From a virus (Duplodnaviria; Caudoviricetes): a stretch of DNA of 38,083 nt. The DNA lies in IMG/VR virus record IMGVR_UViG_3300027798_000104, positions 1 to 38,083 of that record. The stretch is one strand, 5' to 3'. The notes under the pieces are model-generated. The model was not told where the DNA came from. It made no database searches and saw only the letters and a list, made by a program, of their open reading frames with translations. Within the stretch, counting starts at the first letter, position 1; each line of letters starts with the position of its first letter. Below, in pieces: positions 6,001-29,688 of this stretch. The position numbers were made by a program, and so were the translations under genes.

Positions 6001-9000
6001 TGTGTTGTATCGTCATCGAACGTTGTATTGTCTGTTAATACAATTGGATCTCGAACAAACGAATTTGGACTGTAAACAACTAGCGTTTCAGATCCGTTCA
6101 TAAAATTTAATTTTGTACCAAAGAATTCAGCAATTGATGGATTGTTATTAACTATTTCTTTTCGAGTGGTCGGATCATATACTTCTCCGTTCCATGCACG
6201 AATATCAACAAGTCCCTGATCGATTTTTTCTCCGTCATATAATACCGTACTAATAGCAATATAGTTGGCATCAGCTGTTAACGCTACCGCAGTTCCAAAC
6301 CCGCTGTTATTTAATGCATTGCTACTAGCGGTCAGTAATTGAAATTGAGGATATGCATTACCATTCTTTTTATAGATAAAGACATATCCCGCAGTTCCGG
6401 GCGCAGATACTGCTAGTGTATTGCTGTCCTGACTAATAGACATAGAATGTCCAAACTTTGCGCCGGCTGTTAAACTATTATGTCCGAGATATCGAGTAGT
6501 AGCATATTGCCATTCGGTTGCTGTGAATTCTAATATGCCGGCTGGCGTGCTATCTGGAGCAACACTTATATATAAAGTTGTACTATTAACTACTTGTGTT
6601 ACATATTGACCGCTGGTAAATCCAACGCCGACAATTTTCATATTAACTTCAATATTAGCGGTATTAGATACTTTTATTACAGTTCCTGTGCTACCGATAG
6701 GACTGTATGCTGTACTGGCTATAACATTAGTTTGATAGTTTAATTGATATACTCTACCAATAGTGTTATATCCGGCGGCAGTTACAAACATTACATCGTT
6801 GCCGAGCACAATATTCGAGCCAAATAATTCATTAGCTACTGGAGTTGGGCTTATTATTGAATCTACAAATGTATAAACGTTGCTTGCATCTTTCTTATAT
6901 AAAGAGATCGCACCTTGATTTACTAATGATGAATTGTAATCTGAATCAGTTGTATTAACTGCGGTGTATAAATCTCCAACTTGTGGATTTGTTGAAACAT
7001 AACTAGCTAACGGTGTTCCGGTTGCTAACCAAGTACCGTCTGGGGACATAGCAATAACGTCACCTAGGTAAACTGCGTTCTGCTGACCTAGTCCGTCAAC
7101 AGTTAACACAGGCGGCTCAATTGAAGATCTTTGAATCCACGGTGCTACTAGCCCTGCCCTATCGTAAATAAATGTTGTTCCATTGTTAATTGTAGTTGCC
7201 ATCACAGTTCCGACACTATTAATTACAATCTGTTTTCCTCTTCCTAAATCATATAGTGGTTCAGTGTTTACTAGTTCTTTATTAGTATACACAGGCGTAT
7301 ACTGCCATGTTTCCCAGTCATAAGACGTTCCTTGGCCGCCGGTCCACAGCAATTCTCCAGAAACAATATTAATAGGTCGAACATTATCAGCGTTGTTAAT
7401 TGAATTTGCTTTTTGTGATCTAAAAACAAAAATTACAATTGTTTTTTGATCAGCAAATGAACCCGAAGGTGTTGTGCTTAGTAATGCACTCAATATCATT
7501 TTATTACCGATAATTGATTTAATTTTAAAAAATCCATTAAACGAACTAGTTTGATTAATGCCTATCCATTCTCCGACAGTAAGAGATATATTATTTTTAG
7601 TTGTTAACGTTATTTCTTTATCGTTAGATGAATAAGTTGCATTTGTAACTATCAGGTCGGCGTCGGTGTATCGATAAACATTCCATGTATTATTTTCAAA
7701 ACCGCACCAAACATAATCACCATTTAAAAAAGTAGTTACATCTTGAGATACAATATCATCAATTGTAGGTAATGCTACTTTAACTTGATCAAGCCTAACG
7801 TGTCCAGGAGTTCTTAAATAATAATGCTGGCTATCTAATGTAGGCCATAAATCATTTTTATATCCTACTGGTTTTAAATACACGTCGTTAGGAGTTTGTC
7901 TAATTATAAAATCAGTTACTGAAGGATCTACATAGTTAACTAATTCAAAACCTTGAGGATTGTTTTTAAACAGCCCTTCAGATAATATAAACTCAACATT
8001 ATTAAATGCAGAACTTGCTCCGTACTGTCCCATACGTACAGCCCACTCTTCGTAAAAACTCACGCTGTCTTTGTTATCTGCGCTAAGGACATCAAATAAT
8101 TTGTTAAGGACATTTTTTGTTCCTTTTTCAATTATCATTCCTTGATAAAATTTAAATTCACTAACATCATCTTGTATAATGTTTTCAAGGAATTGTCGTT
8201 TCTGATAACCAACTAAATGTTGAGACATTTTTTGTTGACTGCTATCAAAGTTATCGCTATCAAGACTATAGAAATCTGTAAACTGTCCTGCTTTATAATT
8301 CCAGTTTGGTAATAATTGTGCTGTTGGTTTTTTATCTAATTTTATCCAACTTATATTTTCAAACGTATTTGTCCCGGATAAAGACGTTTTTGAACTATAA
8401 TAAAATTCCTTATACTTAACGATATCCCCTAGAGAATAATCCTTCCATGCTTCCCAATTTTGGATTATTGCTTGATCAAAAATAAATCCCGGCGCATCAA
8501 ATGATCCAGTCCATCTGTCACTTACATAACCCGATACTCGGATACGCTCTTGTCTATAACCGCTTTCAACATTATAAATTGTATCGTTAAACATTGTAGA
8601 ATTGTTTAAAATTACTACTTGTTCTTTTTGTACTAGATAAAAACTAGCACTGTATACTCCGTCTGCACCGACCGGTATGTAACTAACAGTATTATCATTT
8701 CTATACGAATTCAAGAAATTTGGTTGGATCGGTGTTCCATCAACTTTAAAAAATTCGTAGTCATTAAACGTATTTCTAATATCATCAACAACTGCTAACG
8801 GTAAAGAAAATGTTATCTTTGCCGCAGAAGGACTTAAACTAATCACGCTACTACCTAGATTACTCAACCCGTCGAGCCTAGCATATCGTTCATTGTCAAA
8901 TACCGAAGTTGCTGGAATAGCAGTATATGCTCGGTAGTAGTCGCCGTTATACCTAACAATACTACCTGCCTGTACATCCACAGTCGGTATCCAGTCGTTC

Positions 9001-12000
9001 CACTTATCTTGGCCGAAAGACCAATTTTGTGTTGTCCAGAATAAAAATTCTTTAGCACTTGTTTCCCAGTTTGTTACTTGAGATAACGTAGTATTAAAAT
9101 CATCAAATATAAATCCTTGATCTTCTAACCACGCACCGTAACCTACTAGGAAATCTACTACCTCTTGGATAGTTCTAAATTTTGTGCTGTACGGAACTAT
9201 AACTGTTTCACTTTTATCCCATTCAGATTTTAAATATGCGTCTTGTCCTCCGATGATCGGAAGCTCTGCTAATAGTTCATAAAATTGAACTGTAAAAGTA
9301 TCGGTAGTAGTGTGTAAAGATTTTGATCTATAAAACTTTTTATTGTATTCTACAATTTTGCCAGCGGCAAATCTCGAATTAGGGGCCCATGTGCTAAACG
9401 TTTCTGAAATTCCGCCAACATTGATCTTTAGCCCAATGTCAGTAGCTGGATAATATTTAAAATATGGTTGTGTTTTACTATATCCTTTTACTTCGTACCC
9501 GGTGATTGTACCAATTAGTGTTTTAGTAATGATTACACCGCTGTAGGTAATTTTCTTAATAGGACTAGAGCTATTTAAAATAATACTGTAATCTTCTTGT
9601 GGCACAAAAACACTACCTTGGCTTAGTGGTGTTTTACTATCTAATAATAAATTGAATTTTTCTTTGCTAGTAAATGCGCCAATTCTGTAGGTTAATCTTG
9701 CGTTAATGTTCATTAGATCATAAACATAAGAATTGTAAGATTTTAAATTGTCACTTAAAATATAATCAATTATGTAATTAATAATACCCGAAGTTTGTAC
9801 ATGCGTTTCGCTAGAATATATGCTAGGAATCATAATATCACTGGGTGATATACGCAATCCTGTTTCAGTATAAATTAGTTGACCGGCAATATTTCTTACT
9901 ATTCTTGATCGATCTAAGAGTGTTCCAAATGTTTTTGCGGGATGCAATAACATAATAGTACGTAGTACACTAAAAGGATAATGGCTACTTCTTCTCCAAG
10001 CCGACTCTACTGGACTTACATCTCCGAATACAAAATCAGATTCTGTTGCTTGTGTTATAACTCCAGATGCTAACCCAGAAAATGCAGGGCTTAGAATATT
10101 GCCTTGATCGTCAACAGGAATACATTTATCTAAAATAGGTCTTGCAAATTTTGCATTTATTCTTACCGGTGTATTAGGTTCTCTAATTGTTCCAGTAGCA
10201 AGGTCTTCCCATAGAATTTTATTTTCGCTAGTGTACGGTGCTGGTCCATATACCTCTTGCCACCAACTTGGTTCAATACTAAACCCTAACATCTCCCAAG
10301 GGCATAAATTTGGGCGGTCAGTATCTAGCATCCAACGATAAATTCCTTTCCAGTATCCGGGCAAACCTTGACCGTTGGGCGCAGAATTAAATCTATAATT
10401 AAATGTAAAAGGATCGGTTCTATCGTAATTTAAAGGTTTAGTAAAATCTTGGTCAACTAAACTAGTCCATTTATAAAAATCGGAAGCTAGAACAGAATTA
10501 AACTCTTCTAATGAGTAGTCTGTTTCTCGACCGTATCCGGGAATAACATCATAAATGTCAAATATCGACGGATTATATTCTACTTTAATATTATTAAAAA
10601 TTCTGCTTTCTAGTTCTAAAATTAAATTATCTCTATAGTCCCCGTACGCAAGTATTTGACTGCCGTCGTGACCTTGGATCATTAGTCGAGGAGTAACTAG
10701 ACTTGTATCAAGATAAATTTTTGGTTCGTATTTTGGCCATATTCCAAGTTTAGTAGGAGTAGCCGGTATAAAAGATCCGTTCGTGTTATCGTACTCATCA
10801 ATAATAATAGTATCGCCTGTAGCAATAGTTGCTGTAATAATTACAAAACCCTGGCTACTAAAAACATAATCTCTTTTATATAAAAGCTGTGTTTCGTTTA
10901 GGTATACAATAACTGAACGAGTTGACAATGTATCCATGCTGAACACATTAACTAATGGATATGTTTTAATTCTATAATCAACTACTGATAACGTATTTCT
11001 AATACGTGCAGTGTAAGGAACCATATCGCTAAAATAATATGGACTAGTTTTTGGCTTATCTTGATTTATTTTTTGTAAAATAAGATTTACACCCGTTGCT
11101 TGATCTGTATCAATTCCAATAGTCGAAGCAACTGTTATAAAATTTTTCTTAAATGTATTATAGTCTTCTTTTGAAAATTCTATTGCATTGATTATATTAT
11201 TGTTTTCACTAGTGATATGATATAAACTTAAACTGGCAGGACCGCTATGCTGTACAAATTTTGTACCAAAGGGTGTTATATTTCCAAGGTCTCTTAAATT
11301 ACTGTAGCCTGGAAAGTCTCCGGCGAATCCAGAAATGTTATCAACAATTGATCCTACATGATCAATAACTTCGCCTAATGTAAAATCTGCAATATTGCTG
11401 TTTAACGGATTATTTTGTAAGTTAACAGGGATTTCATAAAATCCTTGTTTGTTAACAGGCTGAGATGCAAATGCTTTTATAGTTAATACATCAGTCAAAC
11501 TAATATCGCTGTTAAGAACAATTTTTTTGTACACTGGGCCATCGACTACTGACCAATTACTGTTGTCTAATCGAATACCATTAATATACACTTTGACAAC
11601 TAAATCGTCTAGTTCTGTAATACTATCAAAAATATCCAAGTCAAAGTTATTCACTAGATTAGAATTTTTATAAATTCTAATGGCTCCTTGATATGTATTT
11701 GACTGGCATTGTTGCCAGCCGTTAACATACACTGTACCCGAGGGAGTTAATTTTTCTAAATAACCAACATCAATAGTTTTAACTATTACACCCGTGTTAT
11801 TTTTATATTCAAAATAATCAGTAAGTAAATTAAAATTAAAAACAATATCACCAATGTTATTGATATTTTTATAAGATAATGAAAATCCTAGCGTAGAATC
11901 TACTGTACCAGTACCTACCTTATAAGAAAACACTGATGTTCCTGTAAACGTTGAGCCGTCATAAACACTAGTATCGCCGTAACTAATACCTTCTTCGTTA

Positions 12001-13673
12001 ACTATATCAAATAACGGAGTTTGATTTAATTTTGTTTTTTGCTGAGCTAGCTTCCACTGAGTTCCAGTGTACCAATAAGTGCTTCCTTGATTCGTTAAGC
12101 CCTGTTTAATAATGCAACCTTGGCCTGCTTCTGGTTCTGCTTCCGGGGACAAGTGAATTTGTCTTTTTCCATTTAAAGTTATGAATTCTACTTTATAAAT
12201 TCTATTCTTTACTAACACATCAGTGTCTGCTGTAAATAAAATTCGTTGTCCCTGAGATATTGATATCCCATCTATATTATAACCAACCTGACCTTCAATC
12301 GTGCTGAACACATCCGTAGTATAACTATCAACTAGATCAATATCTTCAATCGCAACTGATCCAAAATTAAATAATCTTAAATTTGCTTTGAATTCGATAA
12401 TAGGTCGTACTGCTCTAGATGTTTGATTTAAATCAACCGGAATTCCATTAAGTTCTGCTGTTTTAATTATAACGTCTTTATGAAACCAACGATTGTATCG
12501 TGTCCAAGGATTTCGATCCTTGCTTGCTCTATTAATAACAATATGCTCAGGACTTCCGGCAAAACCGGTTGCATCGCTAAACGGCAAAGTATCAAAAGGA
12601 CTATTGTCAAATAATATAGTTTCAGAGGTTGTATAAGTGCTTAATAATTCTAAAATTGAAACATTTATTAATTCAATTGCAGTGCCAACACCTTCAACAT
12701 AATATGATCCCCGATCATATGAGGCCGGTTCAACATTGCCAATAAATCGTATTTTCATTCCGTTAGTAAGACTAATACCGTTAGGCAATGTATAAGATTT
12801 TTTTCCTATGATGTCAAGATTAACATTAATAAATGTGTTATCATCTATAGATAATATTTCAAACACTCCACCAAGATTAGCGTTAGCTGTGCTAGTGTAA
12901 AATAGGACATCGGGGCAAGAGTAAGGCACTGTGAATGTAACAGTACCTTTTTCAATCGAATTTACAACATTGCCGTTTTCATCTTTATATACTAGTTCGT
13001 TGTTAAGATAAGGATGAGATAACCCAGATGATCTAGATGTTTTAATCATGAAGGGATTTGACGGACTAGTTACATTAAATGTATAGGTTTGTCCTCTATA
13101 TAATTTAATTACAGGATCTCTAATTAGACCCGGTGGAGTAAAAATAAACTGATCATCGCCGCCTACTGATTCAACTGTAACAGTATACTCGCTAGTAATT
13201 GCTAATTGTTGCCCTGCAATTTTAACAGTGTCAGGTCCATAAGGCAACCAGTAGTAATTTTGAAAGTTAACAAATTTATCCCAATCAATATGAGGATCCC
13301 AAGAATAAAATTCTTGTTTGTTTAACCTGGCATGATTACTAGTATTACCAGCAAATACTCCTATTTGATTAATATAATCAGCATAGTCTTTAAAAAATGT
13401 AGTATTTCCTAAATCATCAGTTATAACCATCCCCGGTTCTAATTGATAATTTTGTCTGTCCAACGTTGGGGCAGTAATGAAAATGTCAGCGCCATTAGTA
13501 GCTTTAGCATTTTCTCTACCAATGAATCCATTAATCTTCTTAACAGTACCAGGGCGTGTTAATTGTTCTACGGTTGCCTGTAAAAACTTTTTATTAGCAT
13601 CAGTTTGGTAGAATTTAGGTAGGAAGTCAGAAGCTTTTGCATCGCCGCCTGTGGGATTTACACTATCAGCCAT
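1..13673 (-). CDS. Giant modular virion structural protein (baseplate wedge/gp7-like position, adhesin-like), >4557 aa, truncated by the left window edge
   Basis: ATG at 13673 overlaps the gp6 stop (ATGGCTGA) and reads MADSVNPTGGDAKASDFLPKFYQTDANKKFLQATVEQL... Manual translation stays in the same frame at ~8130 (EFKFYQGMIIEKGTKNVLNKLF), ~2450 and the edge (...IIDLTFVPTVDDLS). Its absence from the ORF track is expected if no stop occurs before the edge. It lies directly downstream of gp6, like T4 gene 7. Confidence 0.88.
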   Translation of the reverse strand, partial: MADSVNPTGGDAKASDFLPKFYQTDANKKFLQATVEQLTRPGTVKKINGFIGRENAKATNGADIFITAPTLDRQNYQLEPGMVITDDLGNTTFFKDYADYINQIGVFAGNTSNHARLNKQEFYSWDPHIDWDKFVNFQNYYWLPYGPDTVKIAGQQLAITSEYTVTVESVGGDDQFIFTPPGLIRDPVIKLYRGQTYTFNVTSPSNPFMIKTSRSSGLSHPYLNNELVYKDENGNVVNSIEKGTVTFTVPYSCPDVLFYTSTANANLGGVFEILSIDDNTFINVNLDIIGKKSYTLPNGISLTNGMKIRFIGNVEPASYDRGSYYVEGVGTAIELINVSILELLSTYTTSETILFDNSPFDTLPFSDATGFAGSPEHIVINRASKDRNPWTRYNRWFHKDVIIKTAELNGIPVDLNQTSRAVRPIIEFKANLRLFNFGSVAIEDIDLVDSYTTDVFSTIEGQVGYNIDGISISQGQRILFTADTDVLVKNRIYKVEFITLNGKRQIHLSPEAEPEAGQGCIIKQGLTNQGSTYWYTGTQWKLAQQKTKLNQTPLFDIVNEEGISYGDTSVYDGSTFTGTSVFSYKVGTGTVDSTLGFSLSYKNINNIGDIVFNFNLLTDYFEYKNNTGVIVKTIDVGYLEKLTPSGTVYVNGWQQCQSNTYQGAIRIYKNSNLVNNFDLDIFDSITELDDLVVKVYINGIRLDNSNWSVVDGPVYKKIVLNSDISLTDVLTIKAFASQPVNKQGFYEIPVNLQNNPLNSNIADFTLGEVIDHVGSIVDNISGFAGDFPGYSNLRDLGNITPFGTKFVQHSGPASLSLYHITSENNNIINAIEFSKEDYNTFKKNFITVASTIGIDTDQATGVNLILQKINQDKPKTSPYYFSDMVPYTARIRNTLSVVDYRIKTYPLVNVFSMDTLSTRSVIVYLNETQLLYKRDYVFSSQGFVIITATIATGDTIIIDEYDNTNGSFIPATPTKLGIWPKYEPKIYLDTSLVTPRLMIQGHDGSQILAYGDYRDNLILELESRIFNNIKVEYNPSIFDIYDVIPGYGRETDYSLEEFNSVLASDFYKWTSLVDQDFTKPLNYDRTDPFTFNYRFNSAPNGQGLPGYWKGIYRWMLDTDRPNLCPWEMLGFSIEPSWWQEVYGPAPYTSENKILWEDLATGTIREPNTPVRINAKFARPILDKCIPVDDQGNILSPAFSGLASGVITQATESDFVFGDVSPVESAWRRSSHYPFSVLRTIMLLHPAKTFGTLLDRSRIVRNIAGQLIYTETGLRISPSDIMIPSIYSSETHVQTSGIINYIIDYILSDNLKSYNSYVYDLMNINARLTYRIGAFTSKEKFNLLLDSKTPLSQGSVFVPQEDYSIILNSSSPIKKITYSGVIITKTLIGTITGYEVKGYSKTQPYFKYYPATDIGLKINVGGISETFSTWAPNSRFAAGKIVEYNKKFYRSKSLHTTTDTFTVQFYELLAELPIIGGQDAYLKSEWDKSETVIVPYSTKFRTIQEVVDFLVGYGAWLEDQGFIFDDFNTTLSQVTNWETSAKEFLFWTTQNWSFGQDKWNDWIPTVDVQAGSIVRYNGDYYRAYTAIPATSVFDNERYARLDGLSNLGSSVISLSPSAAKITFSLPLAVVDDIRNTFNDYEFFKVDGTPIQPNFLNSYRNDNTVSYIPVGADGVYSASFYLVQKEQVVILNNSTMFNDTIYNVESGYRQERIRVSGYVSDRWTGSFDAPGFIFDQAIIQNWEAWKDYSLGDIVKYKEFYYSSKTSLSGTNTFENISWIKLDKKPTAQLLPNWNYKAGQFTDFYSLDSDNFDSSQQKMSQHLVGYQKRQFLENIIQDDVSEFKFYQGMIIEKGTKNVLNKLFDVLSADNKDSVSFYEEWAVRMGQYGASSAFNNVEFILSEGLFKNNPQGFELVNYVDPSVTDFIIRQTPNDVYLKPVGYKNDLWPTLDSQHYYLRTPGHVRLDQVKVALPTIDDIVSQDVTTFLNGDYVWCGFENNTWNVYRYTDADLIVTNATYSSNDKEITLTTKNNISLTVGEWIGINQTSSFNGFFKIKSIIGNKMILSALLSTTPSGSFADQKTIVIFVFRSQKANSINNADNVRPINIVSGELLWTGGQGTSYDWETWQYTPVYTNKELVNTEPLYDLGRGKQIVINSVGTVMATTINNGTTFIYDRAGLVAPWIQRSSIEPPVLTVDGLGQQNAVYLGDVIAMSPDGTWLATGTPLASYVSTNPQVGDLYTAVNTTDSDYNSSLVNQGAISLYKKDASNVYTFVDSIISPTPVANELFGSNIVLGNDVMFVTAAGYNTIGRVYQLNYQTNVIASTAYSPIGSTGTVIKVSNTANIEVNMKIVGVGFTSGQYVTQVVNSTTLYISVAPDSTPAGILEFTATEWQYATTRYLGHNSLTAGAKFGHSMSISQDSNTLAVSAPGTAGYVFIYKKNGNAYPQFQLLTASSNALNNSGFGTAVALTADANYIAISTVLYDGEKIDQGLVDIRAWNGEVYDPTTRKEIVNNNPSIAEFFGTKLNFMNGSETLVVYSPNSFVRDPIVLTDNTTFDDDTTHFLINNSNTGRIDIYDRYDTSWVFSESLKTNDADAHSAYSSGFAVAANRVIVGSPYQLDKGIMSGKLYDCSKRDGTFSWKKIHSQGKAVNLKRIKKAFLYNKLTNNIVSYLDAIDPSQGQIPGIAEQEIKYKTFYDPATYSIGTTTVTVDDGMAWSKSQVGTLWWDLRTAKFIESHDSADVVYRNSTWNTLFPGASIDIYEWVESKLKPAEWNTTADTESGLANGISGTTLYDNTVYSVIRKYDAVAKTFKNVYYYWVKNKKTIPSSLSRNMSAINVAKLIANPRGDGYKYLALTSSNSFSLANCQPLLEDNNVILSVDYWISDSAITQSNIHSQWKLISNDINSEIPTRIEDKWFDSLCGKDIAGRVVPDTNLPAKLRYGIENRPRQGMFINRFEALKQFVEKTNQILINNQIADQRNLTQLDSYDMLPSSITGIYDTIVDTDAELRFANIGSFRKPTLTVGPPIDGKITSVNILEKGSGYLIAPYITVSGAGTGAILRATINSSGQINGVTIVAAGEGYDDNTFLSVRNYSVLVRNDSQAAGIWSIYAYEPSTELWSRTNGQSYDTRKFWTYADWYSTGYNQFTAIDHSVDTFAELGQLSISIGQTVKVRTTTNSTWILLEKYSNNITIDWTTSYKVVAEQKGTIQLSSALYESANTIYGYDSALYDGGTFDNNASIELRIILNTLKNNIFVDNLKQEYLNLFFSNVRYAFSEQTYIDWIFKTSFVKAQHNVGNLDKPVTYKNDNLADFENYIDEVKPYRTKIREYISSYTNLENSQTSTTDFDLPPVLIGNAVIPITGSVVNGTIQTDSSVMNSYPWKYWLDNVGFKITQIVVTDSGSGYLTPPVIRITSSSGAGAVARGFVSNGKLTRISLISNGSGYLEAPIIVVDGNTTGTLAKAVAIIGHGVVRSNLIKIKFDRTTSQYVITQLQETETFPATGSQKQFVLTWAPDVRVGKSIVAIKLKTLTTSTEVLQGEYSLAITKSSASMYTRYYGTLTFNTAPPKDAVITVTYIKDWSLLNAADRIQHYYDPASGELGKDLAQLMDGIDYGGVIVSGLGFELAKGWDSLPYYSDKWDTFDTTFDDYIATAATDDQYLYTLPYIPEQGTGKINIYQAKLLVESYLSDGEQLNYDFNIQAINPVVTVTTELDITDASATYVQTGSTGTTLKISGLSGTIVSGMSVIGTGFNSGQTVVTVVNSSTLILSASPNNQPVGTLYFTKNIAGVDILEVENTELLVAGDAITVTPFIADTIGYNTKILRVLSSTTVQLDQILFKNITNSTATFTRTLGISTDYVINMNGTVTLLNPVDAGSSINISSLITALGSSGALRVDDGTYYTDGITKIIDISGYVDSVSKGDQIIIRKWTSDGSVKPQDTDYDTALEGGNLAYTSATGLLADTIIVDGDGFVTPTSSGAPEEVVPGQVVDTMAIKVFDRPSSGSAVIKVDSYLADGNQRNFQISQTPNSHQAVIVKFTKGQRTGTVLESVSSIKTEIDDYIVLYNTNEVRFVTAPPAGELVSIFSVGFNGTGILDLDYFIGDGTTNEFITKAAWTDPVTYLVYVNGSPVNVVLFKTDTSYEDIDQIGIRFINPPLANSVINYIIVTGSRQTFSITKSEIITPTGTDTYDLQNISGDSLPIESSMIVRVDNTILSGPNNSYFKIGSNRLNYIIDPAKFVPFSVAATDIVVLADGILLTPSTDYIIDLSGLTIKINKTTYNKYTGKQLIVSIRKNQGYVYVPSIGTSPAQIIFAQSYSAGLIEVTAFYKHDILDIQRTGINITSNLSLTPDTAEYYNYTALAGGLLKLDRTVIDDNYVWVLKNGTLLTPSVDFKVNTDRQSITLATPPSLTDEITLITFSSNVLTSGIAYMQFKDMLNRTHFKRLSKNKQTQLTVELKYTDITITVGDASNFDIPNPQQNKPGIIEIHGERIEYFTKVGNVLGQIRRGTLGTGTPSTHPIGSYVQDIGSSETIPYTETTKTDRVISTGTNIIDLTFVPTVDDLS

Positions 13674-23002: not shown

Positions 23003-23836
23003 ATGACAGTTAAAGTTAACTACCTAAACAACAAGGATATGTTGTTAGAAATACATAGATCAAAGAGTTCATATTGCTCATTTACCGATCCAAAGTACCA
23101 TCAATATGACATTATTTTGCCAAGTACAGACAAAATAAACATACGCACGATAGCCGAAGCTAAAAGAAATCAAGCCAAAAGAATAGGTGATTTGGACTAT
23201 CAAACACGCAAAAAGGCTGGTGAAAAAGTCAAACAAGCTGACTGCGAAATCGACTATAAGAAGATTGACAAGCACGATTTAGTCTTTAGAATCATGACAT
23301 TTGATCATATTCCGCTTAATAATACACGCAAGAAAAACCCTAAAAGTCTAGCTGATCACCGGGACAAAGTTAATTTTCCACCGTTCCAACATTGGAAGTT
23401 TAATGAAACTGAAGAACTAGTTTGTGTGGGTAAGAGTCACTGGAAGGGACCGTTAGATACTGGACGCTTTGACAAAGATGCTGGGACTATTACCAACACC
23501 CTAGCCCGCATGATGATTAAACTATGCGAACGATATGCAACTCGTGGTAACGTTCGAGGTTATACATACAATGACGAAATGAAGGGCCAGGCCATTCTAC
23601 AGTTAACACAAATTGGATTGCAGTTTGATGAGAGTAAATCAGATAACCCGTTTGCCTATTTTACTGCGGCTGTTACTAACAGCTTTGTTCGTGTTATTAA
23701 TCTGGAAAAACGTAATCAAAATATACGTGACGATATTTTAGAAATGAATGGAATGAATCCGTCATATTCACGCACGGGACAAGGCGAACACGAGGCCGCT
23801 CTTAAACGACATAACGAGGATACTACTAGTGAGTAA
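23003..23836 (+). CDS. gp55: Late-transcription sigma factor, T4 gp55-like
   Basis: NYLNNKDML N-terminus and LCERYATRGNVRGYTYNDEM..AILQL...FDESKSDNPFAYFT..VTNSFVRVINLEKR. Upstream of gp47/46 as in T4-like phages. Confidence 0.9.
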   Translation: MTVKVNYLNNKDMLLEIHRSKSSYCSFTDPKYHQYDIILPSTDKINIRTIAEAKRNQAKRIGDLDYQTRKKAGEKVKQADCEIDYKKIDKHDLVFRIMTFDHIPLNNTRKKNPKSLADHRDKVNFPPFQHWKFNETEELVCVGKSHWKGPLDTGRFDKDAGTITNTLARMMIKLCERYATRGNVRGYTYNDEMKGQAILQLTQIGLQFDESKSDNPFAYFTAAVTNSFVRVINLEKRNQNIRDDILEMNGMNPSYSRTGQGEHEAALKRHNEDTTSE

Positions 23837-24842
23837 TTTGTTTAAAAAAGTAGCATGTTTTACAGACATACATTTTGGATTAAAATCTAATAGTTCAACT
23901 CATAATCAAGATTGTGAAGATTTTGTAGATTGGTATATTGCCAAAGCAAAAGAGGAGGGATGTGATGTTGGCATCTTTATGGGCGATTGGCATCACAATC
24001 GTAACAGTCTTAATATTACTACTATGGACTATAGTCTTAGAGCCCTTGAGAAACTGGGACAGGCTTTCGATAAGTTTTATTTCTTTCCTGGCAATCATGA
24101 TCTTTACTACAAAGATAAGCGGGACATCCACTCAGTTGAATTCGGAAAGTATATTCCTGGCATAACTGTGGTACACGAGCCCACTACTATTGGTGACGTT
24201 ACTTTATGTCCTTGGCTCGTTGGGGAAGAGTGGCGAAGCATAGGCAAGAAGGGCGGCAAGTATATCTTTGGCCACTTTGAATTGCCCAGCTTCTTTATGA
24301 ACGCTATGGTACAAATGCCGGACCACGGAGAGATTCAATTAGATAGTTTTCAAAACTATGAGTTAGGATTTAGTGGGCATTTTCACAAGCGACAGCAACG
24401 CCAAAATATGATTTACATCGGCAATGCGTTTCCGCACAACTATGCAGATGCATGGGATGACGAACGAGGTATGATGATATTAGAATGGGATGGAACTCCG
24501 GAATACCATAGCTGGCCGGCGCAACCAACGTTCCGCACAGTTAAATTAAGCCAGCTTATCGATGAAGCGGACTCGTTAATCTTGCCCAAGCAACATTTAC
24601 GTGTTACACTAGATATTGACATCTCGTATGAGGAAGCAAGTTTTATCAAAGAAAAGTTTGTATCTGATTATGATATCCGAGAACTAACTTTGATTACAGA
24701 ACGCAAAGACGTTGAGATTAATACTAACATTGATATACAAGCATTTGAAAGCGTTGATCAAATTGTAAGTAGCCAAATCATTAATATTGAAAGCGACCAA
24801 TTTGACAAGAACACACTTTTAGCAATTTATAATAGCCTATGA
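23829..24842 (+). CDS. gp47: Recombination endonuclease subunit (Mre11/SbcD-like)
   Basis: Metallophosphoesterase motifs FTDIHFG, GDWHH, GNHD, GHFE, SGHFH. GTG start overlaps the gp55 stop. Confidence 0.93.
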   Translation: MSNLFKKVACFTDIHFGLKSNSSTHNQDCEDFVDWYIAKAKEEGCDVGIFMGDWHHNRNSLNITTMDYSLRALEKLGQAFDKFYFFPGNHDLYYKDKRDIHSVEFGKYIPGITVVHEPTTIGDVTLCPWLVGEEWRSIGKKGGKYIFGHFELPSFFMNAMVQMPDHGEIQLDSFQNYELGFSGHFHKRQQRQNMIYIGNAFPHNYADAWDDERGMMILEWDGTPEYHSWPAQPTFRTVKLSQLIDEADSLILPKQHLRVTLDIDISYEEASFIKEKFVSDYDIRELTLITERKDVEINTNIDIQAFESVDQIVSSQIINIESDQFDKNTLLAIYNSL

Positions 24843-26617
24843 TAAAAATTAAGGAATTAACTGTACGTAACTTTATGAGTGTAGGCAACCAAACTCAAGG
24901 AGTTAATTTTGCACAAGAAAACTTAACACTGGTACTAGGCGAAAACTTAGACCAGGGTGGAGACGATAGTGGCAGTAGAAATGGTACTGGTAAAACTACT
25001 ATCGTAAATGCCTTGAGTTATTCTCTGTTTGGTAATGCGCTTACTAACATTAAAAAAGATAATCTTATTAACAAGATTAACAATAAAGGCATGTTAGTTA
25101 CTCTAGCATTTGAAAAAGATGGCACTGACTATCGTATCGAGCGTGGGCGCAAACCTAACATATTAAAGTTCTATGTAAACGATCAAGAACAAGAAACAGA
25201 CGAAACAGATGATGCACAAGGCGATATGCGTGAAACCCAGAAAGACTTAGATGACTTGCTGGGTATGAGTCACGATATGTTCAAGCATATTGTCGCTCTT
25301 AACACGTATACTGAACCGTTTTTATCAATGCGGGCAAATGATCAGAGGGTAATTATTGAACAACTTTTAGGTATCACATTACTGTCAGAAAAGGCAGAAA
25401 CGCTAAAAGAAATGATTCGGCAAACTAAAGATAGCGTTATGCAAGAAAGTGCTGATATCGAAGCGGCAAAAAAATCTAACGAAAAAATTCAAATAAGCAT
25501 TGATAGTCTGTTAACTAGACAAACTGCTTGGAATACCCAACACGAACAAGAACTTGAAAAAATCGGTCGTGCTATTATTGAACTTGAAAGTGTTGATATT
25601 GATACTGAGCTAGCCAAGCATGCCGAGCTCAAAGTTTACGAAGAAGCTTCGCAGAAGCTAAAAAGCCTAAACAAGGAGCGGGCTACGTTAGACAGCGCGA
25701 CAGCGCAAGCGGAGCGAAGCGTAAAAAAATACGCTGACGAGCTTGCTAAGTTGAAGGACAAAAAATGTCACGCTTGTGAACAGGAACTGCATGATCACAA
25801 ACATGAAGAAATGTCTACTACTGCTCAACTGCACTTAGACGAAGCCAACAAATACAATAACAAGGTAGCCGCGGACCTTGCTAAAATCATGAAAGAGATC
25901 ACGGCTATTGGCGAAATTGCAAAACGTCCCAACACTTACTACGATACTGTAGAAGCCGCACTTAAACATCAGAATAATTTAAAAACTCTTGAAACACAGT
26001 TGACTATCAAAGCAGGAGAAACTGATCCTTATCAAGAGCAAGTTGATGAGTTAACTGATACTGCCATACAAGAAATCACATGGGACAAGGTTAATGAGCT
26101 TAACAGTCTCAAAGAACATCAAGAGTTTCTGCTCAAGTTGCTGACCAGCAAAGACAGCTTTATTCGGAAAAAGATCATTGATCAGAATTTAGCCTATCTC
26201 AATAACAGATTGACCTACTATCTCGACAAGATGGGACTACCGCATACTGTCACATTCCTCAACGATTTAACCGTTGAGATCATGCAACTTGGGCAGGATC
26301 TAGACTTTGATAACTTGAGCCGTGGCGAACGCAATCGATTGATTTTGTCGTTGAGCTGGGCGTTCCGTGACGTGTGGGAAAGTCTATATCAAGGTATTAA
26401 TTTACTGTTCATTGACGAGCTTATTGACAACGGGCTAGATGCCGCCGGTGTTGAAGGTGCGTTGGCTGTACTTAAGAAAATTGCCCGTGAACGTAAAAAG
26501 AATGTGTTCTTGATATCGCACAAAGATGAACTAATCGGTCGTGTGAACAATGTACTTAAAGTCATTAAAGAAAATGGCTTTACGTCATATGCCAATGATC
26601 TAGAGGTTACAGAGTAA
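24839..26617 (+). CDS. gp46: Recombination ATPase subunit (Rad50/SbcC-like)
   Basis: NFMSVGN, Walker A (NGTGKTT), coiled coil with CHAC zinc hook, signature LSRGE, Walker B LLFIDE, ISH switch. Confidence 0.95.
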   Translation: MIKIKELTVRNFMSVGNQTQGVNFAQENLTLVLGENLDQGGDDSGSRNGTGKTTIVNALSYSLFGNALTNIKKDNLINKINNKGMLVTLAFEKDGTDYRIERGRKPNILKFYVNDQEQETDETDDAQGDMRETQKDLDDLLGMSHDMFKHIVALNTYTEPFLSMRANDQRVIIEQLLGITLLSEKAETLKEMIRQTKDSVMQESADIEAAKKSNEKIQISIDSLLTRQTAWNTQHEQELEKIGRAIIELESVDIDTELAKHAELKVYEEASQKLKSLNKERATLDSATAQAERSVKKYADELAKLKDKKCHACEQELHDHKHEEMSTTAQLHLDEANKYNNKVAADLAKIMKEITAIGEIAKRPNTYYDTVEAALKHQNNLKTLETQLTIKAGETDPYQEQVDELTDTAIQEITWDKVNELNSLKEHQEFLLKLLTSKDSFIRKKIIDQNLAYLNNRLTYYLDKMGLPHTVTFLNDLTVEIMQLGQDLDFDNLSRGERNRLILSLSWAFRDVWESLYQGINLLFIDELIDNGLDAAGVEGALAVLKKIARERKKNVFLISHKDELIGRVNNVLKVIKENGFTSYANDLEVTE

Positions 26618-26865
26618 TGCACCAAGACGAAGAGTTGCATGCCGAACTCTTAAAGAAGTTTAGAGAGTATTTTGAAGCTAATCAAGAATGGTTAGGAAGA
26701 GGCACGAAGGTGTCGGCTATAAAACTGCGCAGGATAATGAGCGAGATTAGAACATTGCTGAGTCGGCGCAGAGTATTGGTCCGAGAATGGACTGACCAAA
26801 AAGAAGAACAATTAAAGGCACGTAATCAAAAACGCAAGGCTACCAAGGGATCCAATGCTAACTAA
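26617..26865 (+). CDS. Small basic helical protein, Hc1-like (histone H1-like) putative nucleic-acid-binding protein
   Basis: 82 aa, coupled to gp46 by TAATG. GRGTKVSAIKLRRIMSEIRTLLSRRR resembles the G-x-K-A-A-x-x-R-x-R-K core of short Hc1-like proteins (recognised from memory). Confidence 0.5.
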   Translation: MHQDEELHAELLKKFREYFEANQEWLGRGTKVSAIKLRRIMSEIRTLLSRRRVLVREWTDQKEEQLKARNQKRKATKGSNAN

Positions 26866-26868
26866 AGC

Positions 26869-27294
26869 ATGTCATGGACTTATCAAAATGAAATTGTTGA
26901 AACACTTCCCGAAGAATGTGTTGGTTTCGTATATTTGATAACAAATGACATCTCTGGCAGAAAGTATATAGGCAAAAAATTAGCCAAGTTCGCTAAAACA
27001 TCTTACCGGGTGGTTAAGCTCAAGAACGGAACTAAGAAAAAGAAGAAAATTCGTAGCAAGATCGACAGCGATTGGAGAGATTATTATGGCTCCAGCGATG
27101 CGTTGACAAAAGACATAGAAACACTAGGCAAAGAAAACTTCAGTAGAGAAATCCTATATTACTGCACATCCAAGGCGCAATGCTCTTACATCGAGGCCAG
27201 AGAACAATTCACCCACAAAGTTCTTGAATCAACGGACTATTACAACGGACACATAGCTGTTCGTGTACACGGTTCACACATATTAAAATCATAG
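26869..27294 (+). CDS. Stand-alone GIY-YIG superfamily nuclease (catalytic domain only)
   Basis: GFVYLITNDISGRKYIGKK (GIY-YIG pair), WRDYYGSS, helix SYIEARE with candidate metal-binding Glu, terminal YYN. Lys-rich insert KLKNGTKKKKKIRSK. Confidence 0.8.
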   Translation: MSWTYQNEIVETLPEECVGFVYLITNDISGRKYIGKKLAKFAKTSYRVVKLKNGTKKKKKIRSKIDSDWRDYYGSSDALTKDIETLGKENFSREILYYCTSKAQCSYIEAREQFTHKVLESTDYYNGHIAVRVHGSHILKS

Positions 27295-27324
27295 GCTCCT
27301 AGCGGTAATATAGCTCGCACTAGC

Positions 27325-27640
27325 TAATATCTTGTGCCCATGACAACTCGATAAAAAGAGGGACGGAAATCTCTAGCCGCCAGAGTACTCAGCAACTATC
27401 CTTAACAGGACGATGATCGCGAATTGCCGTGGTTTTGCTGTTTTAAACTAAAAAGGCACAAGGAAGGGTGAAAAACCCTACGTTTGTCAGTATGTTAGCG
27501 TATACTCACAAACCGCCGTTGAATAAAGACTCAGCTCGTGGTATCGGTCAACCGCCACTGTAATGCTGTAACGCTAAGTGACATACGTGCAACTCAGATA
27601 ATGTCAATTCTTTGCCCGGCCTGGGCAAAGTGTGACTGAA
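27325..27640 (+). ncRNA. Putative highly structured non-coding RNA of unknown family (boundaries approximate)
   Basis: No ORF in the track. Helices: CTTGTGCC 27331-38/GGCACAAG 27455-62; CAGCAA 27390-95/TTGCTG 27435-40; TCCT-TAAC-AGGA 27399-410; AGGGT-GAAAA-ACCCT 27465-79; stem 27482-27513 with loop TTAGCG complementary to CGCTAA 27572-77; CTTTGCCC/GGGCAAAG 27610-30. Confidence 0.6.
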
Positions 27641-27645
27641 CAATC

Positions 27646-27745
27646 TAGATAATATCTAAGTGCTTCGCACTTAATAGTTCTTGATAATTAAAGAAAAGAG
27701 AATATGCTTGAGCGCAAGCGAAGAGCAGATGAACGTAGTTCATCT
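27646..27745. repeat. Cluster of short inverted repeats, including GNA-triloop hairpins
   Basis: TAGAT-AAT-ATCTA 27646-58; TAAGTGC-TTC-GCACTTA 27657-73 (GCGAAGC core on -); GCTTG-AGCG-CAAGC 27706-19; AGATGAAC-GTA-GTTCATCT 27727-45. Confidence 0.8.
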
Positions 27746-27753
27746 TTAAAGTA

Positions 27754-27780: not shown

Positions 27781-28644
27781 ATGAAGATATATGAAGTAAT
27801 CGCTGAAGACGCCGCTTATAATGTAGGTTTTGCCGCGGGTAAAACTGCAAAACTAATTGACAAATACATTATAGCCCACAACATACAAGGGGAAGTTGTG
27901 ACTAGTCGTTTGGCCAAAGGCGCTGGCACATTCCTTCGTGTAATTAAATTGCTGGGATACTATGATATTGCTGTGGTATTATGGCAGCAAAAAATAGCAA
28001 TTCAAGGTCTAGTTAAGAGCAAGCAGATCAGTGCTGAAGACGGTGATGCCGCAATTCGCCAACAGTACGAAAAGATGGTTGCATCAATATTGGCCGCAGG
28101 CGGCGTTGTCAAACTTATGGCCTTACTAAGGGTATTGCCATTTGTCAAATGGTTTGTACGTGCAGGTACCGCAGTGGCTTCGGGCGCAACTTTAGGTGCT
28201 CTTGGCGGTCCAGCTATCATGTTTGCCATTGCTACTGAAGTTGGTATTATTTGGTTACAAAAATATCTAGCGACCAAAGAAGGTCAAGAAGCACTGGCAT
28301 GGTTCGTGATTTACATTATCGATCCTAGCGTAGTTTGGGTGTGGAATGAAAGTTTTGGTAGGATTGTCGAAGCTTGGAAACTTAAAGAAGTTAGTCCAGA
28401 AGCGCAGGCTAAGATTGACGGAACTATCAAAGGCAAAGATGGGGTCGCAGGCGGTATTGCCGGCAAACCTAGTGCTAAAGATGACATTGAAAAAAGTTCC
28501 ACTAGTAAAGACTTTAGCGGCGGAACTGTTCAGGCTTACGATCAATATGGTAATAGATCGAGTTGGGGGGTAGGAGATAGATTTGCACATAAAGTTGGTG
28601 ACAAACTAGACCAAGGTGAAGACTACCGCGGGCCTATTAAATAA
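27781..28644 (+). CDS. Hypothetical late protein with hydrophobic segments; candidate capsid-internal protein
   Basis: 287-aa ORF with its own late promoter and RBS. N-terminus MKIYEVIAE; several Gly/Ala-rich hydrophobic stretches. Confidence 0.7.
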   Translation: MKIYEVIAEDAAYNVGFAAGKTAKLIDKYIIAHNIQGEVVTSRLAKGAGTFLRVIKLLGYYDIAVVLWQQKIAIQGLVKSKQISAEDGDAAIRQQYEKMVASILAAGGVVKLMALLRVLPFVKWFVRAGTAVASGATLGALGGPAIMFAIATEVGIIWLQKYLATKEGQEALAWFVIYIIDPSVVWVWNESFGRIVEAWKLKEVSPEAQAKIDGTIKGKDGVAGGIAGKPSAKDDIEKSSTSKDFSGGTVQAYDQYGNRSSWGVGDRFAHKVGDKLDQGEDYRGPIK

Positions 28645-28870
28645 TAGCCATTTGTGATGCTTTGGTAGTTTCGATATTTTCTTTAATAATATCGCCCATG
28701 ATTTTTATATCTTCAGCAGAGTAAGTATGCAGTAAATCGTTGATATTTACGCCTCCGCGCATAAACCAACTTATTCTAAACAGCTCTGTTTTATATTGTA
28801 TTGCATCTTTTTCAAGCCTAACAAGCAAGTCTTCAATTTGCTGATTAGAAAGTCTTGTTAGGCGGCGGCG
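28637..28870 (-). CDS. Small baseplate/tail assembly protein (cyanophage 'gp51'-like position), probably the -1 frameshift extension of the upstream gp26-like gene
   Basis: Frame is open from the slippery site: RRRLTRLSNQQIEDLLVRLEKDAIQYKTELFRISWFMRGG...IIKENIETTK. The only early start is a TTG at 28828 with no clear RBS. Confidence 0.7.
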   Translation of the reverse strand, partial: RRRLTRLSNQQIEDLLVRLEKDAIQYKTELFRISWFMRGGVNINDLLHTYSAEDIKIMGDIIKENIETTKASQMAII

Positions 28871-29688
28871 AAAAAACTTGCTTGATCCAAATCAACATTA
28901 AATGAATTTTCTGCATCGCAACTATCACACTTAACATGCGTAGTTGGTATGCGCCACACTTCGCTGTTTTTAGTCACTTGCGTACGGACAGTATCAAACA
29001 CAGTTTTATCAGCATTTTCAATCCACTCGGTAATAAACTCTGACTCAGTAACTACTTGTCCACTAGGTAATTCTACTTGTTCAATGCCTGCAATGATTAC
29101 TTTATTTTGAAGAAGTCCTAAATCTCGATAAATCTCACCAATTAGTTTATTTTTTTCTTCTTCGTTTTCTAATGCGCTAGCTTGTATTAATCGTTTTTGC
29201 AACGCAAATTGTGCTAGATTAAAATCAGTTACTTGTCTGTAATCAAGAGGGCGAATCCGAATAGTTAGATCACCAAGTGTGACACTTGACTCAAACTGAC
29301 ATTGACTAAAATGATCTAGGAATTTAGTAACATCAAGATCGTAATTGTTTTCAGTATCACATTTCTCACACACATGTACCATAGTCATAGTATTGCCATA
29401 AGTAGCAACACGAATTCCTACTAGCAGTGCATCTACGTCTAGGTTGCTTACAGCCCATCCATCTTTAACGTTTGGACAACAACTTTCAATTACTCTCACA
29501 GTACTTTCGCCTGTTATCAGAGCATCCGGAGTTTTTAACATGATCTCATCCATGCCAGTCATACCATATACTGGCATGTGAGTAAGATCGCCTGTAATAG
29601 CTGTAGGATCGTTGTAAACACCTTGACTAGGCAATGATACAAATACCTTGGGTTGTCTAAAATACTGTTGTAATGGGTTATTGGCCAT
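28858..29688 (-). CDS. gp26: Baseplate hub assembly chaperone, gp26-like
   Basis: NPLQQYFRQPK.FVSLPSQG, MTGMDEIMLKTPDAL, DVDALLVGIRVATYG, two CxxC motifs (CEKC, CDSC), C-terminal SFF. Confidence 0.8.
   Translation of the reverse strand: MANNPLQQYFRQPKVFVSLPSQGVYNDPTAITGDLTHMPVYGMTGMDEIMLKTPDALITGESTVRVIESCCPNVKDGWAVSNLDVDALLVGIRVATYGNTMTMVHVCEKCDTENNYDLDVTKFLDHFSQCQFESSVTLGDLTIRIRPLDYRQVTDFNLAQFALQKRLIQASALENEEEKNKLIGEIYRDLGLLQNKVIIAGIEQVELPSGQVVTESEFITEWIENADKTVFDTVRTQVTKNSEVWRIPTTHVKCDSCDAENSFNVDLDQASFFAAA

What the first reader, a model, noticed from the sequence alone, without database searches (positions are those of the whole stretch)
26869..27640. Minimal GIY-YIG nuclease followed directly by a complex, pseudoknotted non-coding element: candidate nuclease-RNA system
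Seen: in a genome whose genes otherwise abut or overlap, the 141-aa GIY-YIG ORF is followed by ~480 ORF-free nt. An 8-bp helix (27331-38/27455-62) closes a multibranch domain containing CTCT/AGAG (27371-85), CAGCAA/TTGCTG and a UAAC hairpin. There is a possible crossing pair ACGGAAAT 27363-70 with ATTGCCGT 27423-30 (one mismatch). A second domain has a long stem (27482-27513) whose loop TTAGCGT matches ACGCTAA 27571-77 (7-bp pseudoknot). No terminator is evident between ORF and element. Known: GIY-YIG homing endonucleases (I-TevI, Seg) need appended DNA-binding domains, and this protein has only the catalytic domain plus a Lys-rich insert. Inference: the RNA could be the protein's partner (an RNP nuclease or guide-like scaffold, by analogy with HEARO/omega-RNA loci), a ribozyme, or a replication-priming RNA. 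I do not recognise it as a known family.
Basis: partly seen in the sequence, partly recalled or inferred. Interest (0 to 1): 0.85.

Follow-up and report, generated by a model that had tools for sequence, protein, structure and literature searches.

The report
Phage orphan RNA, likely replication primer
The gene-free gap behind a small nuclease-like gene in this freshwater phage holds a conserved, knotted element of about 345 bases from an RNA family catalogued in 2010, and two short repeats at its end that almost always change together suggest the predicted RNA likely grips its own DNA to start replication, with the nuclease probably a replaceable neighbour and not its partner.

Summary
The element is real but not new. 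27312-27443 is Rfam Polynucleobacter-1 (79 bits), and the 2010 alignment already holds the second domain and the UUAGCGU/ACGCUAA pseudoknot. The nuclease-RNA reading is not supported. GIY-YIG proteins 99% identical sit beside different RNA bodies, a resolvase-like gene replaces the nuclease in some phages, and 16 Polynucleobacter-type contigs, several shown to be integrase-bearing islands, carry the element with no such gene in view. Beyond the 2010 alignment lie a second 4-bp pseudoknot and two direct repeats (27596-602, 27647-653), identical in 196 of 203 loci; all four mismatched types among 27 distinct pairs are G versus A. Downstream, DNA-type GNA mini-hairpins occur in 150 of 197 loci. 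Best reading (about 45%): a ColE1 RNA II-like pre-primer whose upstream repeat pairs with the template strand of the downstream one, forming an R-loop origin. Priming is untested, there is no skew switch at the site, and transcript data are weak. The scan reached this same reading earlier on other genomes.

The parts
23003..26617 (+). Context: gp55-like late sigma factor, gp47 (SbcD/Mre11-like) and gp46 (SbcC/Rad50-like) of a T4-like phage
   Evidence: PHROGs 12791/234, 100, 77
26617..26865 (+). 82-aa ORF of unknown function between gp46 and the nuclease
   Evidence: no PHROG match; only sub-cutoff Pfam matches
26869..27294 (+). Stand-alone GIY-YIG nuclease-family protein (PF19835; phrog_447, labelled 'NAD synthetase'), with a basic beta-hairpin at residues 40-66. 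Replaceable neighbour of the RNA
   Evidence: model pLDDT 92.6; best fold match I-TevI catalytic domain, Z 8.7, rmsd 2.6 over 82 residues; invariant Y22, Y33, G35, E109, N126 in 32 homologs
27312..27443 (+). RNA domain 1 = Rfam Polynucleobacter-1 (5' hairpin with helices 27312-14/27323-25 and 27317-21/27333-37; multibranch closed by 27390-95/27435-40)
   Evidence: 79.2 bits; covariation
27444..27578 (+). RNA domain 2: long stem 27482-27513, helices 27532-35/27565-68 and 27538-42/27554-58
   Evidence: covariation; present in the 2010 alignment
27495..27577 (+). Pseudoknot 1, UUAGCGU 27495-501 with ACGCUAA 27571-77 (annotated in 2010)
   Evidence: 91% of cells paired; 7-9 joint changes at each of three pairs; SS_cons_1 line
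27519..27551 (+). Pseudoknot 2, 27519-22 with hairpin loop 27548-51 (not drawn in the 2010 structure line)
   Evidence: UA to CG in 18 of 86 and GC to AU in 15 of 86, 9-11 joint changes on the tree; this genome has A-U where 82 of 86 have U-A
27592..27604 (+). Repeat R1: ACTC + heptamer AGATAAT (27596-27602)
   Evidence: identity covariation with R2
27610..27630 (+). GC-rich hairpin between the repeats, followed by a TGAC motif that starts 14-15 nt before the R2 heptamer in 176 of 203 loci
27643..27655 (+). Repeat R2: ATCT + heptamer AGATAAT (27647-27653)
   Evidence: identity covariation with R1
27657..27673 (-). DNA mini-hairpin with cGAAg triloop on the minus strand
27710..27721 (+). GA-GCGCAAGC-GA mini-hairpin motif (GCGNNAGC type)
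   Evidence: motif in 145 of 197 loci; motif class described in PMC13037366 (passages)
27727..27745 (+). 8-bp DNA hairpin with cGTAg triloop
27755..27761 (+). ATAAATA, resembling a T4-type late promoter for the next gene at 27781
   Evidence: sequence; the consensus is recalled

Best explanation
The gap holds a full-length Polynucleobacter-1 element of about 345 nt whose predicted RNA likely acts in cis as a ColE1 RNA II-like pre-primer of an RNA-primed replication origin, probably without needing the neighbouring GIY-YIG protein. Shown: the fold, both pseudoknots, the co-changing repeats, the downstream DNA mini-hairpins, one element per genome, and independence from the nuclease. Inferred: read-through transcription makes the RNA and its domains fold. 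As RNA polymerase passes R2, the already-made R1 segment (7-9 nt, about the recalled length of the polymerase's RNA-DNA hybrid) would pair with the template strand of R2 and anchor the RNA as an R-loop. Trimming, perhaps by the phage's 5'-3' exonuclease/RNase H-type enzyme, would give a 3' OH for the phage B-family polymerase. The exposed single strands would fold into GNA mini-hairpins that serve as helicase/primase loading marks. Integrase-bearing islands in lake bacteria would carry the same cassette to use or mimic this start site. The nuclease likely works on branched DNA with gp46/47, as the resolvase-like gene that replaces it would.
For: Repeats: identical heptamers in 196 of 203 loci, against a shuffle mean of 26 and maximum of 42. 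In alignment columns, 86, 85 and 86 of 86 rows are identical at three variable positions, with 13, 7 and 10 joint changes on the tree. There are 27 distinct pairs, 23 identical, and all 4 mismatched are R1=G/R2=A, the wobble allowed if sense R1 pairs with the antisense of R2; position 8 is G/A in 128 of 203. No complementary partner shows among the top 70 covarying column pairs of the type A alignment, and no GIY-YIG or gp46 C-terminal residue tracks the heptamer (best 0.1-0.3 bits against 0.85-1.1). Unrelated heptamers obey the same rule in the island set (13 of 14 identical, 1 G/A). cGNAg hairpins follow R2 in 150 of 197 loci, against 0.002-0.004 per window genome-wide and 0 of 203 inside the RNA body; such hairpins are more stable as DNA than as RNA and occur at G4, St-1/alpha3 and RSF1010 priming sites (PMC13037366, passages). 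One full element per genome in 4 of 4 large contigs, all with PolB and a 5'-3' exonuclease. T4 oriF uses a transcript R-loop as primer (PMC3016281, passages), as does ColE1 (PMC5043065, passages). A motif built from the phage hairpins has its two best ColE1 matches about 150 nt past the origin on the RNA II strand. Short repeat clusters lie just upstream in 3 of 7 GIY-less type A/B phage loci.
Against: No priming, R-loop or RNA end was observed. Third-codon GC skew does not change sign at the element in G001-G003 and shifts only weakly in G004. The ColE1 match is not significant by score (2 of 30 shuffles reached 15.8), a full profile found nothing, and blastn of the hairpin region against plasmids gave only chance hits. 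Wobble polarity is mixed outside the core: the invariant CTC/TCT flank and positions -5 and 10 favour the opposite polarity or none. Four G/A mismatch types, all at position 7, are a small sample. Joint changes on the tree may be inflated by block exchange of the whole 3' module. A protein encoded elsewhere that binds both repeats was not excluded. The known T4 R-loop origins need no elaborate fold. RNA-library cover is thin (longest pieces at depth 2-7), with strand and level unknown. GIY-YIG lies within 1.5 kb upstream in 134 of 142 phage loci.
Confidence: 0.45

Rival explanations
1. The two repeats are DNA sites bound by a protein (iteron-like initiator sites, or a packaging or recombination signal), and the folded RNA is a separate or accessory part.
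For: Direct-repeat identity is what paired protein sites show. The ACTC and ATCT flanks are near-invariant. An island protein weakly matches a terminase small subunit (E 0.0014) and another a clamp loader. T4 oriE has iterons.
Against: At least 23 different heptamers, some differing between near-identical relatives (ATGAAGA versus ACGAAGA; five kinds among 14 island loci), would each need a matching protein change. Spacing varies from 47 to 74 nt. Mismatches are only G/A. No covarying residue in the two proteins tested.
Confidence: 0.17
2. R1 displaces the nascent R2 from the template to pause or release RNA polymerase, so the module is a terminator or 3'-end-forming device for a stable RNA and primes nothing.
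For: Same pairing polarity as the best reading. Terminator-like matches on both strands at 27656-74 and 27706-19. The module persists where the next gene is convergent.
Against: The downstream hairpins have DNA-type GNA loops on both strands and short U-tracts. RNA-library contigs run across R2 into the hairpins in two runs (X4 27548-27698, X6 27596-27746), though these may be DNA.
Confidence: 0.15
3. A trans-acting RNA or ribozyme (packaging, processing, or helper-satellite conflict) with a function unrelated to DNA synthesis.
For: Elaborate conserved tertiary fold with two pseudoknots and invariant unpaired bases. Carried by islands. Three different bodies exist.
Against: It does not explain identity covariation or the DNA hairpins. 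No Rfam ribozyme match at gathering or at E up to 1 (10 loci). No tmRNA or tRNA. No sign of high abundance in 8 RNA runs laid.
Confidence: 0.12
4. One reading: the RNA is the partner or guide scaffold of the GIY-YIG nuclease (HEARO/omega-RNA-like).
For: GIY-YIG within 1.5 kb upstream in 134 of 142 phage loci, directly adjacent in 79. RNA type needs fewer changes on the GIY tree than on the gp46 tree (12 versus 16). The protein has a basic hairpin that is longer in this clade than in two RNA-less homologs. The 3' module is shared by all RNA types and could be a common substrate.
Against: 99.3% identical proteins beside types B and C. A gene or gap intervenes in 55 of 142 loci. A resolvase-like PD-(D/E)XK gene is present instead in 5 loci. 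G004 lacks the nuclease. None in 16 island-type loci, 9 of them with 2 kb or more upstream. The P-SSM4 homolog overlaps its next gene and the Melnitz homolog has a 148-nt gap, neither with a profile hit. No guide-like match to the own genome in 4 genomes. The locus is fixed, not a mobile element.
Confidence: 0.08

Closest known systems
Polynucleobacter-1 RNA motif (Rfam RF01718; Weinberg et al. 2010, PMC2864571)
   Same: Domain 1 matches the model end to end (79.2 bits). Domain 2 and pseudoknot 1 are in the paper's 16-row alignment (supplement 5). Fresh-water habitat.
   Different: The 2010 alignment stops at about 27578 and lacks the repeats, the hairpin between them, the DNA mini-hairpins and pseudoknot 2. 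It was listed as probably cis-regulatory with no function in the table I saw. The text and gene-context supplements (S1.DOC, S3.PDF) could not be read and may mention the neighbouring gene.
ColE1 RNA II pre-primer origin (NC_001371; PMC5043065, passages)
   Same: Long folded transcript ending near a putative start site; proposed persistent hybrid; hairpin-type motif downstream on the same strand. An upstream G-run of RNA II pairing with a downstream template C-run is recalled, not read here.
   Different: No Rfam or blast similarity. About 345 nt against 550. The anchor here is a variable 7-9-nt repeat. No antisense RNA I counterpart was identified. Phage with its own polymerase.
Phage T4 oriF/oriG R-loop origins (PMC3016281, passages)
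   Same: T4-like phage; transcript-primed start; PolB and 5'-3' exonuclease present in relatives.
   Different: T4 origins need only a middle promoter and an A+T-rich unwinding element, with no specific sequence or conserved fold. There are several per genome, against one element here.
HEARO / omega-RNA with IscB-type nucleases (recalled)
   Same: Nuclease ORF next to a large pseudoknotted RNA.
   Different: No Rfam hit to those families; fixed chromosomal slot, single copy; nuclease replaceable or absent; no guide-like segment found.
I-TevI and T4 Seg GIY-YIG catalytic domains (PF19835)
   Same: Fold (Z 8.7, rmsd 2.6, 82 aligned) and GIY/YIG tyrosines, glutamate and asparagine.
   Different: No appended DNA-binding domain. 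Homologs in 502 GenBank phage records. Long basic beta-hairpin. No invariant arginine in the stretch after YIG, so activity is inferred.

Membership tests
Polynucleobacter-1 (RF01718) | Covariance-model score above the gathering threshold over the whole model | tested here: met
   79.2 bits against 37, model 1-141
Polynucleobacter-1 (RF01718) | 3' extension with the pseudoknot of the 2010 alignment | tested here: met
GIY-YIG nuclease (PF19835) | Profile match and fold | tested here: met
   112.9 bits against cut-off 25; I-TevI best fold match
GIY-YIG nuclease (PF19835) | Nuclease activity | not testable with these tools
   invariant Y22, Y33, E109, N126; the mapping to catalytic roles is recalled
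RNA-guided nuclease system (HEARO/OMEGA-like) | Obligate pairing and co-evolution of RNA scaffold and nuclease | tested here: not met
RNA-guided nuclease system (HEARO/OMEGA-like) | Variable guide segment matching a target | tested here: inconclusive
   no convincing match to the own genome in 4 genomes; host and competitor genomes not searched
RNA-guided nuclease system (HEARO/OMEGA-like) | Multi-copy mobile element | tested here: not met
   one full element in 4 of 4 large contigs, next to gp46 in the phage loci
Group I intron with GIY-YIG ORF | Intron core and an interrupted host gene | tested here: not met
   no Rfam intron hit; upstream ORF ends 3 nt before the nuclease, and the downstream gene varies in length and strand
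tmRNA / RNase P / GOLLD / ROOL | Match to family model | tested here: not met
ColE1-type RNA-primed origin | Sequence homology to RNA II | tested here: not met
ColE1-type RNA-primed origin | Persistent RNA-DNA hybrid processed into a primer | not testable with these tools
   indirect only: repeat covariation
ColE1-type RNA-primed origin | Downstream single-strand initiation signal | tested here: inconclusive
   mini-hairpins enriched; top two motif hits lie past the ColE1 origin but not above shuffles; that this stretch is the primosome site is recalled
ColE1-type RNA-primed origin | Antisense copy-control RNA | not tested
   contig data give no strand
Retron/RT template RNA | Cognate reverse transcriptase | tested here: not met
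   PF00078 in 0 of 4 genomes

The most novel reading that the evidence does not exclude
Large freshwater T4-like phages start replication from a single modular RNA origin: interchangeable pseudoknotted RNA bodies (at least three kinds, two without an Rfam match) joined to a self-anchoring 3' module in which a free-to-vary repeat re-pairs with its own template. Satellite-like islands in lake bacteria have captured the whole cassette to be copied by the helper's replisome. This would give an orphan RNA family a function and define a programmable R-loop origin distinct from ColE1.
Probability: 0.35. Interest if true: 0.85.

Novelty: new variant of a known kind. Interest (0 to 1): 0.55.

Why it matters
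The family has had no function in the papers my searches found since 2010, and the element occurs in roughly 900 viral stretches for one pattern alone (estimate). How large environmental T4-like phages start replication is unknown, and the T4 review lists the rules of origin R-loop formation as open. Identity covariation of two repeats gives a sharp test: swap both repeats to a new sequence and see if function returns. If true, it is a new RNA-primed origin design shared by phages and their likely satellites. If false, the result still removes this locus from the list of candidate RNA-guided nucleases.

Tried and rejected
Group I intron, tmRNA, tRNA, RNase P, HEARO, GOLLD, ROOL: no Rfam or ARAGORN hit. 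Types B and C: no Rfam hit at gathering (8 of 20 loci without any hit) or at E up to 1. Sigma-70 promoters: 2 found against 3.4 expected; the GATAAT of the repeats is not a -10 box, since it varies to CATGAA, GAGAAA and others. Guide or third-copy search: extra copies of the 10-mers in four genomes are scattered, with no shared context. Replication skew switch: absent in three genomes, weak in one. Profile HMM of the hairpin region against ColE1: nothing. blastn against plasmids and GenBank phages: chance hits only. Pattern scan of prokaryote genomes: 113 matches, only 3 with neighbouring domains of the element. The pattern GCRGTAGCRGAGACTT in viral contigs gave 4 true elements among 59 matches. 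RNase HI (PF00075) and RT (PF00078): 0 of 4 genomes. Sequence search of solved structures: nothing at E under 0.2; Foldseek gave no match at E up to 0.001. My recollection that the motif was reported next to a P-SSM4 gene could not be verified. I did not find a readable source for the ColE1 primosome site or the G-run pairing. Literature searches for a function: 'Polynucleobacter-1' gave one paper, 'RF01718' three listings of which I read only the 2010 paper, and two combined searches gave nothing relevant. Subscription journals and bioRxiv supplements are not covered. A resemblance of the GCATAAT repeat variant to Xer/dif half-sites (recalled) was dropped because the repeats are direct and most variants differ.

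Full report
Setting. The window is a 38-kb fragment of a T4-like phage, with baseplate, portal, protease and capsid genes and a gp55-gp47-gp46 block. Relatives with the same locus reach 300-347 kb. After gp46 come an 82-aa ORF, the 141-aa GIY-YIG ORF (26869-27294) and a 486-nt gap, the largest between listed ORFs. No GenBank phage is close: 502 records hold a homolog of the protein, all under 60% identity, mostly cyanophages, often labelled 'NAD synthetase'.

The element is a known family. cmscan of the window gives one hit, Polynucleobacter-1 (RF01718) at 27312-27443, 79.2 bits against a threshold of 37. I read passages of Weinberg et al. 2010 (PMC2864571) and its alignment in supplement 5. 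That 16-row alignment is longer than the Rfam model: 11 rows by my count continue through the second domain, and the UUAGCGU/ACGCUAA pseudoknot is annotated. The descriptive supplement and the gene-context file could not be read, so a published link to the neighbouring gene cannot be excluded.

I collected 208 distinct elements (86 type A like the window, 65 type B, 57 type C). In the 85 type A relatives (mean pairwise identity 66%), CAGCAA/UUGCUG is 99% paired with 14-16 joint changes at each of three pairs, the long stem 86%, and pseudoknot 1 91%. In 22 covarying pairs G-U occurs 100 times and A-C 8 times, which points to the + strand as RNA. The 8-bp closing helix and the crossing pair are kept by 0 of 85 and their sides change independently. 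The closing helix appears only in the single-sequence fold. A further 4-bp pseudoknot, 27519-22 with 27548-51, covaries and is not in the 2010 structure line.

The nuclease is a neighbour. Of the 80 best protein relatives kept (of 569 found), 62 have a clear type A domain 1, 3 a weak or cut one, 7 type B, 6 type C, 1 a divergent form and 1 ends at the gene. From the RNA side, 134 of 142 phage loci with at least 1.4 kb upstream have the nuclease within 1.5 kb: 79 adjacent, 55 with a gene or gap between. Against partnership: proteins 99.3% identical flank types B and C. RNA type changes at least 12 times on the 75-row nuclease tree, against 16 on the gp46 tree (short alignment, weak forks). Five of the 8 loci without the nuclease have a PD-(D/E)XK protein like a Holliday junction resolvase (PF24608, phrog_244). 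G004 (302 kb, 85% complete) has that gene between gp46 and the RNA and no GIY-YIG match, while the three GIY-bearing genomes have no match to that resolvase. The P-SSM4 and Melnitz homologs have no such element behind them. The predicted structure is a GIY-YIG core closest to I-TevI with a long basic beta-hairpin. I infer a branched-DNA nuclease working with gp46/47.

The 3' module. All types end in ACTC-[7 nt], a hairpin, then ATCT-[7 nt]. The two heptamers are identical in 196 of 203 loci, against a shuffle mean of 26. Five of 208 were dropped (two with no anchored pair, three scoring under 6 of 7), and the finder picks the best anchored pair, so it leans to identity. The alignment-column test has no such bias: 86, 85 and 86 of 86 rows are identical at the three most variable positions, with 13, 7 and 10 joint changes. 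Across the session there are 27 distinct pairs, 23 identical and 4 with R1=G/R2=A at position 7. No complementary partner shows among the top covarying pairs, no shared third copy was found in four genomes, and no nuclease or gp46 C-terminal residue follows the heptamer. The simplest reading is that R1 in the RNA pairs with the template strand of R2, where G-T wobble is tolerated. The flanks do not show the same polarity, and block exchange of the module could inflate the change counts.

Downstream DNA hairpins. Within 122 nt after R2, 150 of 197 loci have a C-GNA-G triloop hairpin on one strand or the other. The genome background is 0.002-0.004 per window, and 0 of 203 occur in a control stretch of the RNA body. 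145 of 197 carry a GAGCG-n-AGCGA type motif. A review (PMC13037366, passages) describes GCGNAGC and GCGNNAGC as unusually stable DNA hairpins found at phage G4, St-1/alpha3 and RSF1010 priming sites and N4 promoters. A weight matrix of the motif has its two best ColE1 matches at 1330 and 1347, about 150 nt past the origin on the RNA II strand. The score is reached by 2 of 30 shuffles, a full profile finds nothing, and I formed the comparison from memory, so this is a lead only.

Islands. A motif from the Polynucleobacter row of the 2010 alignment found 16 metagenome loci. None has a GIY-YIG, resolvase or gp46 match in view; 9 have 2 kb or more upstream. The five whose ORFs I listed share a gene of about 190 aa; the copy scanned is a tyrosine integrase, and one locus also has a clamp-loader-like ATPase and another a weak terminase small-subunit match. 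All 14 with the 3' end in view have the same module with new heptamers (AGAGAAA, AGCGAAA, GACAAAA, GGAGAAA, GTCAAAG/A); 13 are identical and one is G/A. This set was found without any repeat-based selection, and it shows the cassette exists without the nuclease.

Tests that did not help the origin reading. One full element occurs in each of four large contigs, but third-position skew follows the coding strand and does not switch at the element. T4-like phages replicate largely by recombination late in infection (PMC3016281, passages), so this neither supports nor refutes. Twenty RNA runs from 20 studies hold part of the stretch. In the 8 laid, the longest contig pieces over the element have depth 2-7, three bridge the nuclease stop codon and the element, and strand, ends and level cannot be read; DNA carry-over is possible.

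Verdict. The nuclease-RNA system is unlikely (0.08). The best-supported mechanism is a cis-acting pre-primer of an R-loop origin, working like ColE1 RNA II or T4 oriF without being homologous to either (0.45). Protein-bound repeats (0.17), a termination device (0.15) and a trans-acting RNA (0.12) remain open. I had noted the co-changing repeats before reading the scan's earlier notes. Those notes reach the same reading on other genomes and gave me the island and ColE1 leads; they are not independent support. The searches found no paper giving this RNA a function.

Noticed in passing
window 28637-28870 (- strand): The gp26-like baseplate hub gene (28858-29688) ends on a TTTTTTC run followed 6 nt later by a stem (-17.8 kcal/mol). 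The -1 frame is open through the 63-aa ORF at 28637-28828, so this is a programmed -1 frameshift candidate.
   Followed up: partly
window 3-13673 (- strand): A single ORF of at least 4557 aa runs off the window; only weak Pfam matches (FG-GAP, CBM_5_12, DUF2460) below cut-off. Likely a giant tail or virion protein.
   Followed up: partly
L093:1460-1880 and 112 other matches: Type C: a roughly 400-nt covarying RNA body with no detected similarity to domains 1-2, in the same slot and with the same 3' repeat module; no Rfam match in the loci scanned.
   Followed up: partly
L197, L206, L053 and others: Type B: a different 5' domain joined to a domain-2-like core and the same 3' module; no Rfam match in the loci scanned.
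   Followed up: partly
L223:1156-1276; also L201, L240: Clusters of short TAGGCAC-type repeats just upstream of the RNA in three loci that lack the GIY-YIG gene; iteron-like.
   Followed up: partly
L011:3443-4450, L012:3426-4271, L026:2135-3130, L069:3426-3692: Genes inserted between nuclease and RNA; the three scanned (L011, L012, L069) have no Pfam or PHROG match.
   Followed up: partly
L569, L573, L576, L578, L581: Integrase-bearing islands of Polynucleobacter type with a DUF6641 gene divergent from the RNA, plus a clamp-loader-like ATPase (L573) and a weak terminase small-subunit match (L569); possible satellites of these phages.
   Followed up: partly
window 25644-25660: The only other cGNAg mini-hairpin in the window (6-bp stem, loop at 25651) lies inside gp46.
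   Followed up: no
phrog_447: The family label 'NAD synthetase' looks like a misannotation of a stand-alone GIY-YIG protein.
   Followed up: yes
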